From: the human T2T-CHM13v2.0 reference genome, Homo sapiens
Assembly (NCBI RefSeq): GCF_009914755.1
Contig: NC_060927.1
Reading direction: 5' to 3' (one strand)
DNA length: 64,000 bases
Part shown: positions 24,618 through 31,114 of the stretch, in pieces
Layout: the number at the start of each line of letters is the position of its first letter
Position numbering within the stretch: the stretch's first letter is position 1
Made by a program: the position numbers and the translations under genes
The notes under the pieces: generated by a model
Told to the model about the DNA's origin: nothing
Database searches by the model: none
Seen by the model: only the letters and a program-made list of their open reading frames with translations

Positions 24618-24799
24618 TGCCCTGGAGGAGAAGCCAAAAGAATCAAAGAATATATACTGTATAGTCAACAACATAAGGAAAAAATGTATTAGAGAGGTAA
24701 AATGTATTAGAGAGGCAAATTAGATAAAATGATGATAATAATATGCTTTTCTGGATTGGGCTATATTTATTGTTGCCCTGGAGGAGAAGCCAAAAGAAT
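24618..24799. other. Inverted templated insertion (24641-24775 copies 30313-30444) flanked by a 26-bp direct duplication
   Basis: About 92% identity to the reverse complement of 30313-30444; tgccctggaggagaagccaaaagaat at 24618-24643 and 24774-24799. Confidence 0.93.
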
Positions 24800-24927
24800 G
24801 CCAAGCTTTTCTTCTGTATGCCACAAAGCATGATTAGCTTGACTCTTACCTTTAGACAAATAAAACTGAATGCAGATCTATATAGACAAAAAATACTAGC
24901 ATAAATGTTATTGTTAGGAAGCTTGAT

Positions 24928-25249
24928 TGTATTAGTCTGTTTTCACATTGCTGTAAAGAAATACCCAAGACTGGGTCATTTATAAAGGAAGAAGGATTAA
25001 TTGACTCATAGTTCTGAATCATAGTAGAAGGAGAAGCAGACACCTTCTTCACAAGTCAGCAGGAAAGAGAAGAGTGAAGGAGGACTTTCAAACACCTATA
25101 AACCATCAGATCTCCTGAGAACTCTCTCACTATGTCAAGAACAGCATGGGAGAAATCACCCCCACAATCCAATCTCCTCCCTCCCTTGACATGTGGGGAT
25201 TATAATTCAAGATGAGATTTGGGTGGGGACACAGAGCCAAATCATATCA
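24928..25249 (-). mobile_element. THE1 solo LTR (MaLR)
   Basis: tgtattagtctgttttcac...gagatttgggtggggacacagagccaaatcatatca; 5-bp TSD ttgat/tcgat. Confidence 0.9.
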
Positions 25250-25879
25250 TCGATGATGATGAGGATGATGATGATGATAATGACGCTAACAATAAATAAG
25301 AGAAGCCTCAGGAAAAGGTTTTCATTAGTATTGCAAACAAACTGTAGCCTAACAGCTCCACTGATTTCACAGATCACAGCTGCAAGATCATCTAGCTCAG
25401 TGTCAAGGCAAAAGCAGCAAAAGTCCAGTTCTGTGAATGGATAAGGCTAGGAGTTGGGCAGGTGGTGAACGCTGGGATGCCTAGTGCCCAACTGCAAAGA
25501 AAAAGAAGGCTTTTCCCTGCCCAGAATCACCTTCTCAGGAAAGCCTTCAGTAGCTCTTAAAGGCAGAACTCACTTTAGCTTTTTATCTATTTGCACTGGG
25601 GCACTGTGTTCTCCTGTATCCCTAGCTCCAATGTTAGGCAGGGTCAGGGTAGTAAGTGGCAATTTTGTGTCTGGACCTAATGTATATGGTGGCTCTTGCT
25701 ACATAGTGAAAATAGTAATTCCTACTTTCCTTTCTTTAACAGCAGTCTATATTGAGCACACTGTATGGCCTCCTCGCTGTAGTGAGAAGAAAACAATGGC
25801 CAGCTTAAAAGCAATAAAGAAGGGACCGGAGCAGGAAGTAAAAAGGGAGAGTCTGTTCTGTTTAGAAAAGCACATAAAT

Positions 25880-28610: not shown

Positions 28611-28860
28611 AGAGAGAAAAATTTTAAGAAGTTGCTCATCTGATTGTTGTGAAAGCTGACAAATCCAAAATTTCAAAAGCTTCAGGGTAGGACAGCAAGC
28701 TGGAGACCCAGGGAACAGTTTATGCTGCAATTCAAGTCTGAAGGTGGTCTGCTAGCAGAATTCACTCAAGGGAGATTGGTCTTTTTTCTATCAAGGCCTT
28801 TAACCAATTAGTTGAGACTCACTCACATTATGGAAGGTAATGTACTTTACTCAAGTCTTC

Positions 28861-29268
28861 TGTATTAGTCTATTTTGCATTGCTATGAAGGGATATATGA
28901 GGCTTATAAAGAAAAGAGGTTTATTTGGCTCAAGATTTTGCAGGCTGTACAAGAAGCACAGTGCCAGCATCTACTTCTGGTGAGGCCTCCAAAAGTTTCC
29001 AATCATGGTGAAAGGTGAAGTGGGAGCAGGTGTGTCACTCACAGAAAGGGAGTAAAAGAGAGGGGAGGAGGTGCCAGCATCTTTTAAACAATCAGCTCTT
29101 GTATGAACTAATCGAGTGAGCACTCACTCATACCCATGAGGCAGGCAGCAAGCCATTCATGAGGATCCACCCTCATGACCTAAACACCTCCCACTAGTCC
29201 CCACCTCCAACACTGGGGACCACATTCCAACATGAGATTCGGAGGAGACAAATATCCAAACCATTACA
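28861..29268 (-). mobile_element. MST solo LTR (MaLR)
   Basis: tgtattagtctattttgcattgctat...caacatgagattcggaggagacaaatatccaaaccattaca; TSD tcttc/tctac. Confidence 0.85.
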
Positions 29269-29512
29269 TCTACTGATTTAAGTAGAACTCTCATATAAAA
29301 ATACCTTCACAGATATATCTAGAACAATATTTGAGCAAATATCTGGGTACCATGGCCTAGCCAAATTGATACATAAAGTTAACCATCTCCAAGTGCTTCT
29401 GAGAGATTCACCCAGAAGACTGCTGGTATTTAGGGGCCTCTGAACCCCTTCCTTTTTTTTTTCTCTCCATAGCATAGGGGTCTGGAGTCTTGCATCTGAC
29501 TCTACCACCTTA

Positions 29513-31114
29513 ACAGAAGAGCCCAAGTTTTGTGGAGTTTGATGCTTATGTAATTTGAGTGGCCATCTTTGAGAAATAATTAAAAGACATAAAGTCCATT
29601 TTTCATTTCAGACATTACTGATAGGAGCAGAAAAAGAAACGAACATTTTGAAGATCAGCTAATCAGTTTCTTATGAAGGTAACAATTTCCTCTACCCAAT
29701 GACAAAGCAATTCCCCTCCAAAATGAAAACATTTGTCTATAAAAATACTGCACAAGAGTTTCATAGCTGCTTTATTCATAATAGATCCAAACTGATAACT
29801 CAAATGTCCATTAAAAAATAAATGGGTTAAAAATATTGATATATTCACACAATGAAATATGACCCAGAAATGAAAAAAAGGAATTACCAATATACACAAA
29901 ACATGCCTAAATATAGAAAACATTATGCTGCACTAAATAAGCCAAATATAAGAGTACATGGTGTAGTATTTCATGTATATGAAGCTCTAAAACAGGTAAA
30001 ACTATTCTATAATGTAAGCAGAAAAGTAGTTTCCCAGGGCTGGGGATGGAAAGTGACTTACTTCAAAGGACACAAGGAAACTTTCTGGGGTAATGGAAAT
30101 GTTCCAAATCTTGACTTGCAAGGTGCTAACATTTGTAAAGTTTGTGAAACTCATTCAACAGTACACTTAAAATACATCCATTTTATGTTATGTAAATTGT
30201 TCCTGAATGAAGGTGATGTAAAACAAAATTACAAAACAAAGTAAGTATAAAAGCAAATATTTATTTAGAATTAATTGAGAAAACTCAGGAGATCAATCAT
30301 TTTTAAGGTTGTCAAAAATAAATATAGCCCAATCCAGAAAAGCATATTATTTTCATTTTACCTAATTTACGTCTATAATACATTTTATCTCTCTAATACA
30401 TTTTTTCCTTATGTTGTTGACTATACAGTATATATCCTTTGATTGTCTCCTCATATAACAAAAGTCTTGTAATTTATCTCTAGAGAAACTAAAAAGCTAT
30501 TTCAGGGTTTCCTCTGGCATGGATGCATGAAATTCTCTTTTTCATTTCTGATAATTTAGAAGGCTTTCCTTCAGTTTCTCGACACACTCTGGGTGATGAC
30601 ATATCTATAAGTTCTTATGGTTTTTTATGAAGGGAGTGCTTCTTGCCCAGGAGCAGCCCTGTGTATCTCCAGACATTTGATGTTTCTTGGTGTGGCCCCT
30701 GATGACCACTCAGCAGCTGGCCCACCTCAGCCAGATCCTCACTGGTCCCTGCCCTCCAGCTCCCCATTTCTGCAGGGATGATCCTGGGGGGGTGAGGTGG
30801 CCGTGAAGCCTGAGACACAGGTCCTTAGTGGAGTAGCATCTCCCTCAGATCCTTCTCTTCTGAGTGAAGATACAGCCCTGATGCTTGATGCTTGTATCAG
30901 ACATAAGATGTCAGTGTGGCTGAGAGAATGTACAGTTAAAATTGGCAGTCCCAGGATCACTTCCAGAGCACAAAAGTGACCATCAGGGCACATGGCTAGA
31001 GGTACTGCTTTCTACTTTCATCCTCAGAGAGAAACACGCTAATCCTTGTAATGCCTCCATGCAAGAGCAGGGCCCTAAAGCTTAAGCGTCATGAGCATGT
31101 GCCTAATAGCTCTG
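29513..31114. mobile_element. Probable ancient hAT-Tip100-type element (MER115-like) split by an L1ME fragment
   Basis: Left end cccaagttttgtggagtttgatgcttatgtaattt; right end gggccctaaagcttaagc...ctctg. Recalled consensus only. Confidence 0.45.
29640..30235 (+). mobile_element. L1ME-type 3' end
   Basis: ttcatagctgctttattcataatag...aactttctggggtaatggaaatgtt...ttttatgttatgtaaatt. Confidence 0.7.

What the first reader, a model, noticed from the sequence alone, without database searches (positions are those of the whole stretch)
24618..30444. 135-bp inverted templated insertion with 26-bp target duplication and junction microhomology
Seen: 24641-24775 is the reverse complement of 30313-30444 (8 substitutions plus one 3-nt indel). 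It sits between two identical copies of tgccctggaggagaagccaaaagaat. The junctions overlap the donor by aat (left) and tg (right). There is no poly(A) and no terminal repeat, so it is not a retroposed or transposed unit. The donor lies in an ancient repeat, but 92% identity points to a local copy. Inference: a fossil replication or repair template switch (FoSTeS/MMBIR or Pol theta templated insertion) that jumped out, copied the opposite strand and re-annealed 26 nt upstream. Donor distance would be about 3.2 kb without the intervening 2.4-kb L1PA.
Basis: partly seen in the sequence, partly recalled or inferred. Interest (0 to 1): 0.72.

Follow-up and report, generated by a model that had tools for sequence, protein, structure and literature searches.

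The report
Old inverted copy-paste DNA repair scar
A 130-135-base piece of an old human repeat was copied backwards into a spot 5.5 kb away between two copies of a 26-base stretch; it is an ordinary example of a known kind of variant, likely left by a DNA-copying switch during repair and likely older than the human-chimpanzee split.

Summary
24641-24775 matches the reverse complement of 30313-30444 at 124 of 135 columns, between two exact 26-mers; searches of the genome found no other copy of either. The donor lies inside an old dispersed repeat whose other copies run through it and both flanks. So 30313-30444 is the source and 24644-24773 the copy. The insert also shares an 18-bp tandem duplication private to this donor. 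Of the 8 substitutions, 3 fall on the donor, 4 on the insert and 1 is unresolved. This fits ageing of both copies, not error-prone copying, and points to an event likely older than the human-chimpanzee split. A DNA-templated switch-and-return primed by microhomology (MMBIR/FoSTeS type) is the best reading (0.55); patching of a staggered break is the main rival (0.3). Canonical Pol theta insertion and L1 retroposition fail their tests. The microhomology (3+2 nt) is only mildly above chance. The intervening L1 cannot be dated as younger, so the 3.2-kb distance is conditional. The class is well described (1000 Genomes 'Inverted Dup', '4-before-1' template switches, PCAWG local two-jumps). No gene or function is implicated. 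Primate outgroups could not be tested. Low interest.

The parts
24618..24643 (+). Left copy of the duplicated target 26-mer; its last 3 nt (AAT) are shared with the donor (junction microhomology)
24644..24773 (-). Inserted copy of the donor, inverted (130 bp unique, 135 bp with both microhomologies, 24641-24775); GC 26%; carries the donor's 18-bp tandem duplication
24774..24799 (+). Right copy of the 26-mer; its first 2 nt (TG) are shared with the donor
30313..30444 (+). Donor (source) segment; no flanking direct repeat; collinear with both flanks in dispersed paralogs
30368..30403 (+). 18-bp tandem duplication present in donor and insert, absent from the paralogs; marks this copy as the source
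   Evidence: period-18 match 16/18 donor, 17/18 insert, 6-12/18 in 23 of 24 paralogs (1 too short to score)
30213..30598 (.). Old dispersed repeat that hosts the donor (about 50-60% identity to paralogs). hAT-type DNA transposon end, Zaphod/MER91-like, is a recalled resemblance and was not confirmed
   Evidence: (E 7.6e-36); no family named by Pfam or PDB
25874..28283 (+). 5'-inverted L1PA fragment between insert and donor, target duplication at 25866-25873 and 28284-28291; a separate event
24625..24631 (+). 7-nt word in the duplicated target that also occurs next to the donor end (30446-30452, opposite strand), offset from the actual junction; weak, post hoc
   Evidence: 4.8% of 1119 background sites with the same terminal match do as well

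Best explanation
The insert is an inverted copy of the segment at 30313-30444 flanked by a duplicated 21-26-bp target, likely made in one germline event in which a stalled or broken 3' DNA end primed on 2-3 nt of microhomology on the opposite strand a few kb away, copied about 130 nt and rejoined its own chromosome behind the point it left (MMBIR/FoSTeS-type switch-and-return). Shown here: the source, the direction of copying between loci, the inversion, the duplication, the microhomologies, and substitutions on both copies. Inferred: a single event, a DNA template, a replication or break-induced polymerase, an age between the catarrhine and great-ape ancestors, and neutrality. The direction of synthesis is not resolved, because the mirror reading gives the same sequence.
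For: Inverted 92% copy with 3-nt and 2-nt junction overlaps and a 26-bp direct repeat. The source is local and unique. The donor is the original: a family profile built without it covers 30213-30598, and 10 of 29 paralog loci align across both donor ends (21 of 29 gave any alignment with the window at the anchor). No poly(A), no polyadenylation signal near either 3' end, no terminal repeats, no TTTT/A at the duplication ends. Joint chance of at least 5 nt of microhomology over two junctions is 0.034. [quoted passage not shown]
Against: Microhomology is weak at each junction alone (chance 0.059 and 0.17). Nothing in the sequence separates a fork switch from a patched staggered break; paired nicks with long overhangs are shown to give small tandem duplications (PMC8355091). 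No hairpin or stable fold at the junctions (z -0.4 to +1.6). No excess of changes on the insert, which error-prone synthesis would give (4:3), though age would hide it. Today's distance (5.5 kb) is just beyond the 5 kb quoted for the class. One earlier paper saw no 4-before-1 events (PMC5453318); the later paper puts this down to method. No outgroup genome was available.
Confidence: 0.55

Rival explanations
1. Staggered double-strand break: two nicks 21-26 bp apart gave complementary overhangs; one end copied or captured a 130-bp patch from the nearby donor, the ends were joined at 2-3 nt of microhomology and fill-in duplicated the overhang (end joining, with or without Pol theta).
For: Explains the short duplication without reopening newly made DNA. 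Paired nicks with 43-50-nt overhangs give tandem duplications, and those made by TMEJ span nearly the whole overhang and show microhomology (PMC8355091 passages). The insert is AT-rich relative to its flanks (GC 0.26 vs 0.36-0.41), as Pol theta insertions are.
Against: Canonical Pol theta insertions use templates within about 30-50 bp and primary tracts rarely over 10 bp; here 130 bp from 3-5.6 kb away. The passages read do not show kb-distant patches at staggered breaks.
Confidence: 0.3
2. RNA-templated insertion: a transcript through the donor was reverse-transcribed at the target by L1 ORF2p or a repair polymerase (class 1 or class 2 TSIP-like).
For: A target duplication of at least 5 bp is a class 1 feature (PMC5110952). 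L1PA elements of similar age are in the window.
Against: No poly(A), no polyadenylation signal near a 3' end, no TTTT/A site. An RNA template gives no reason to land 5.5 kb from its source. No gene is annotated in the window (hub note); Rfam shows nothing near gathering score. Class 2 lacks target duplications.
Confidence: 0.07
3. Two separate events: a 21-26-bp tandem duplication and an independent insertion that fell on its seam.
For: The 26-mers are identical while insert and donor differ at 6%; small tandem duplications are the commonest short insertions.
Against: 26 of 26 identity is expected with probability 0.20 at the same divergence (Fisher p 0.35). The insertion would have to hit the exact seam, or the duplication jump across the insert.
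Confidence: 0.05
4. The insert is an independent copy of the dispersed repeat family, a transposase product, or an assembly artefact.
For: The donor belongs to a multi-copy old family (40 matches scored of 62 candidates).
Against: Insert identity is 0.92 to the donor and 0.29-0.61 to 24 paralogs; it shares the donor's private 18-bp duplication. It is an internal fragment without terminal repeats. Eight substitutions and an indel exclude a duplicated read or contig.
Confidence: 0.03

Closest known systems
'Inverted Dup' class of the 1000 Genomes phase 3 SV map (Sudmant 2015, PMC4617611; passages read)
   Same: Stretch under 1 kb, copied in inverted orientation close to its other copy, not tied to retrotransposition; 54% of the sequenced 'inversions' were of this class.
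   Different: Those are polymorphic; this one is 5-6% diverged and likely fixed (untested). Distance today is 5.5 kb, about 3.1-3.2 kb without the L1. The passages read give no statistics on target duplications.
Four-point template switch, '4 before 1' type (PMC5453318 passages; PMC7954356 passages and section 8 part 2)
   Same: Reverse-complement fragment plus a direct repeat from returning behind the exit point; order here 4-1-3-2 or its mirror.
   Different: Their events are short-range (median fragment 12 nt, maximum 128); this one is 130-135 nt from kilobases away, outside that model's stated scope.
[quoted passage not shown]
   Same: Same junction topology: host segment re-replicated, template inserted, two inverted junctions on one haplotype.
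   Different: Those are somatic; this is a very small, old germline case.
Pol theta templated insertions (TINS; PMC7165422 passages)
   Same: 2-3 nt microhomology, inverted template allowed, AT-rich insert.
   Different: Template distance (kb vs 50 bp or less) and tract length (130 vs rarely over 10 bp).
Templated sequence insertion polymorphisms, classes 1 and 2 (PMC5110952, part 1 of 4 and passages)
   Same: Templated patch of similar size; target duplication (class 1) or microhomology (class 2).
   Different: No poly(A) or L1 cut site (not class 1); has a duplication and a local donor (not class 2).

Membership tests
1000 Genomes 'Inverted Dup' | Duplicated stretch under 1 kb, inverted relative to its other copy | tested here: met
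   130-135 bp, reverse complement
1000 Genomes 'Inverted Dup' | Inserted within about 5 kb of the other copy ('nearly all cases') | tested here: inconclusive
   5513 bp today; 3225 bp switch distance without the L1, whose relative age is unresolved
1000 Genomes 'Inverted Dup' | Not a product of retrotransposition | tested here: met
1000 Genomes 'Inverted Dup' | Segregating among humans | not testable with these tools
   Only one human genome is held; the paper's table of inversion sites was not seen (searched 1 supplementary file). Divergence suggests a fixed event
Four-point template switch, 4 before 1 | Reverse-complement fragment and direct repeat from return behind the exit point | tested here: met
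   definition
Four-point template switch, 4 before 1 | Short-range template within one fork | tested here: not met
   3.2-5.6 kb; the model excludes long-range switches
PCAWG local two-jump, linked inverted duplications | Two duplicated segments joined by two inverted junctions on one haplotype | tested here: met
   definition
MMBIR/FoSTeS product | 2-3 nt or more of microhomology at the switch points | tested here: met
   3 and 2 nt; joint chance 0.034
MMBIR/FoSTeS product | Origin at a stalled or collapsed fork | not testable with these tools
   Not readable from the product sequence
Pol theta TINS | Template within 50 bp of the break | tested here: not met
Pol theta TINS | Primary synthesis tract rarely over 10 bp | tested here: not met
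   One continuous 130-bp tract
Class 1 TSIP / L1 retroposition | Target duplication of at least 5 bp | tested here: met
   21-26 bp
Class 1 TSIP / L1 retroposition | Poly(A) tail, upstream AATAAA and TTTT/A target | tested here: not met
   (longest A run 6, internal; the only AATAAA is at the 5' end of the minus strand)
Class 2 TSIP | No target duplication, distant donor | tested here: not met
DNA transposon insertion | Terminal inverted repeats and a short fixed-length target duplication (8 bp for hAT, recalled) | tested here: not met
   duplication is 21-26 bp
hAT transposon (identity of the repeat hosting the donor) | Transposase C-terminal dimerisation domain on the minus strand | tested here: inconclusive
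   Paralogs share an in-frame peptide motif, but Pfam named no hAT family for 20 of 59 fragments scanned and the PDB search found nothing better than E 0.9; the name is recalled

The most novel reading that the evidence does not exclude
Kilobase-range inverted copy-paste events with a target duplication are a dense fossil record in primate DNA (this window holds this one and a second, older two-copy inverted pair), and their priming is bipartite: a 3-nt terminal match helped by an offset 7-nt match across a looped-out stretch. A genome-wide census of fixed cases, polarised with repeat paralogs as done here, would then test fork switching against staggered-break patching.
Probability: 0.15. Interest if true: 0.4.

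Novelty: new member of a known kind. Interest (0 to 1): 0.14.

Why it matters
By itself it matters little: a 156-bp gain in intergenic DNA about 33 kb downstream of LRRC3B, with no annotated gene or element over it. It is a clean teaching example of a known mutation class. It also shows that paralogs of an old repeat can stand in for an outgroup to fix the direction of copying and split the later mutations between source and copy.

Tried and rejected
Young event with error-prone copying: disfavoured, since 3 of 7 polarised changes are on the donor (chance 0.026 if 90% of changes were on the insert). Human-specific age: 8 changes in 158 bp has chance 0.0007 at 1.2% divergence (species divergences recalled); the donor side alone is weaker (0.046). 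Secondary structure at the junctions: none. Structured RNA: 4 Rfam matches at E 0.11-0.86, all far below gathering score and none on insert or donor. Donor as part of the neighbouring old L1M-like fragment: rejected, 0 of 20 loci from that fragment's hits match the donor family. Target duplication around the donor: none. Naming the host repeat by Pfam or PDB failed. Ordering the L1 and the event failed: L1 private changes 22 of 869 vs donor 3 of 132. A base rate of such events in neighbouring DNA was not obtained; only the 64-kb window was scanned (6 two-copy pairs among 154 self-matches, 1 with a target duplication). Abyzov 2015 (template sites at 2-6 kb, recalled) is not held and is not used as evidence. 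A search for the short-paired-duplication literature returned nothing relevant among 10 of 43 listed. A locus search (LRRC3B, 3p24.1, inverted duplication, templated insertion, template switch; at least 3 of 5 terms) listed 10 of 32 papers, none containing LRRC3B or 3p24.1; this is weak evidence that the locus is not in print.

Full report
Observation. The 26-mer is exact at 24618-24643 and 24774-24799 and extends no further; a genome-wide pattern search with up to 2 mismatches finds only these two places. The stretch 24641-24775 matches the reverse complement of 30313-30444 at 124 of 135 columns, with 8 substitutions and a 3-nt gap. The overlaps are 3 nt at the left junction and 2 nt at the right, so the true duplication is 21-26 bp and the net gain 156 bp. 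DNA searches of the own genome return only insert and donor (2 of 2 candidates each). That tool skips very common words, so this is not a full BLAT.

Which copy is the source. A search with 1 kb around the donor showed an old L1M-like fragment to its left (family name recalled) and one chr8 match to its right. The chr8 locus aligned through the donor itself (score 226 vs at most 134 in 100 shuffles). Searching with it gave 40 scored matches of 62 candidates, and 30 loci, one of them the donor. A profile from the other 29 covers window 30213-30598 at E 7.6e-36; the profile also carried Alu sequence from interrupted copies, and it did not detect the insert, so its power on this AT-rich piece is limited. 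Ten of the 29 loci align across both donor ends. The donor is thus an unbroken part of an old element with no flanking direct repeat, while the other copy is an excerpt sitting in a target duplication. For base-level work I dropped 5 of 29 loci that were interrupted or partial (L011, L012, L016, L027, L034), leaving 24. The insert is 0.92 identical to the donor and 0.29-0.61 to these 24. Donor and insert share an 18-bp tandem duplication (16 and 17 of 18 matches) that the paralogs lack (6-12 of 18 in 23 scored; segment 112 bp vs median 89). This rules out an independent family copy. The host repeat looks like the end of a hAT DNA transposon (Zaphod/MER91-like), but that name is recalled; Pfam and PDB did not confirm it.

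Age. With the family as outgroup, the donor keeps the family base at 30316, 30361, 30369 and 30375, and the insert keeps it at 30371, 30388 and 30436; the site at the indel is unresolved. Majorities are 13-20 of 20-23 letters, on an alignment of sequences only 50-60% alike, and 30361 is weak (its column differed). The change at 30375 makes the insert's two tandem units alike and may reflect homogenisation. A 4:3 split fits ageing of both copies. Total divergence is 8 of 158 bp, 5.1% (95% interval 2.2-9.7%). Against recalled species divergences, this is unlikely for a human-specific event (0.0007 at 1.2%) or one shared with New World monkeys (0.007 at 11%), and fits 3-6.5%. The likely origin lies between the catarrhine and great-ape ancestors. 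The identical 26-mers are no contradiction (probability 0.20). The intervening L1 is 5'-inverted with its own 8-bp target duplication and has 22 private changes in 869 columns, which cannot be told apart from the event's age. The original distance was therefore either 5.6 or 3.2 kb.

Mechanism. Retroposition fails: no poly(A), no signal near a 3' end, no L1 cut site, no terminal repeats. A local source and inverted orientation point to a DNA template. Microhomology is mildly above chance jointly (0.034) but not at either junction alone (0.059, 0.17); no junction folds unusually. A 7-nt word in the duplicated target recurs beside the donor end, offset from the junction. 4.8% of 1119 background sites with the same terminal match do as well, and 8.6% give as stable a duplex. 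This was noticed after the fact and is only a lead; the other junction shows nothing of the kind. In four-point terms the event is 4-1-3-2 or its mirror. Loytynoja and Goldman saw no 4-before-1 events (PMC5453318 passages); Walker et al. found many, attributed the earlier absence to method, and likened them to strand invasion in break-induced replication (PMC7954356). I give a microhomology-primed switch-and-return 0.55. Patching of a staggered break gives the same sequence, and paired nicks are shown to make small duplications (PMC8355091 passages); I give it 0.3. Canonical Pol theta insertion does not fit template distance or tract length (PMC7165422 passages).

Comparison with what is known. 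Sudmant et al. report that 54% of sequenced 'inversions' were inverted duplications, nearly all under 1 kb and inserted within 5 kb of the other copy, and not typically tied to retrotransposition (PMC4617611 passages). Its one supplementary file searched added nothing, and the table of inversion sites was not seen. [quoted passage not shown] Junctional homology over 10 bp is reported for 38% of insertions in one person, across all insertion types (PMC7640490 passages). It fits neither TSIP class (PMC5110952). A preprint on inversions was read in passages for twin priming (10.1101/2021.12.20.472354); PMC4937565 was read in passages for a reference only. The locus search showed no paper naming the region among 10 of 32 listed, which is weak evidence.

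Limits. No primate or second human genome was available, so the empty site, fixation and date are predictions. No base rate beyond this window was obtained. In the window, 1 of 6 two-copy pairs has a target duplication (this one), and a second inverted pair without other genomic copies lies at 16766-17703.

Verdict. A real, well-preserved, probably neutral scar of a known class. New instance, not a new kind. Interest 0.14.

Noticed in passing
window 16766-16905 and 17564-17703: Second inverted pair, 140 bp at 86%, 659 bp apart, extending more weakly to about 16712-16911 and 17560-17758. No other genomic copy found and no flanking direct repeat at either arm. Either an older local inverted duplicate or the decayed ends of a DNA transposon.
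   Followed up: partly
window 25866-28291: L1PA fragment with an inverted 5' part (about 25874-27391) and a sense 3' part, flanked by an 8-bp target duplication: the twin-priming form. Subfamily near L1PA4 by recalled diagnostics, not tested.
   Followed up: partly
window 29499-29588 and 30213-30598: The old element that hosts the donor appears split in two by an L1M-like fragment: the family profile hits both pieces in order (positions 151-236 and 233-597).
   Followed up: partly
window 24708-24714 vs 30369-30375: Three of the 8 substitutions cluster in 7 bp inside the 18-bp tandem duplication; the insert's two units are more alike (17 of 18) than the donor's, possibly through unit homogenisation.
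   Followed up: partly
window 24930-25250 and 28860-29270: Two stretches that look like MaLR (MST/THE1-type) solo LTRs; names recalled, observed only.
   Followed up: no
window 50124 and 50726: Exact 19-bp direct repeat 602 bp apart around Alu sequence, probably the target duplication of an Alu insertion.
   Followed up: no
window 43906-44285: Long purine-rich GGAA-type simple repeat.
   Followed up: no
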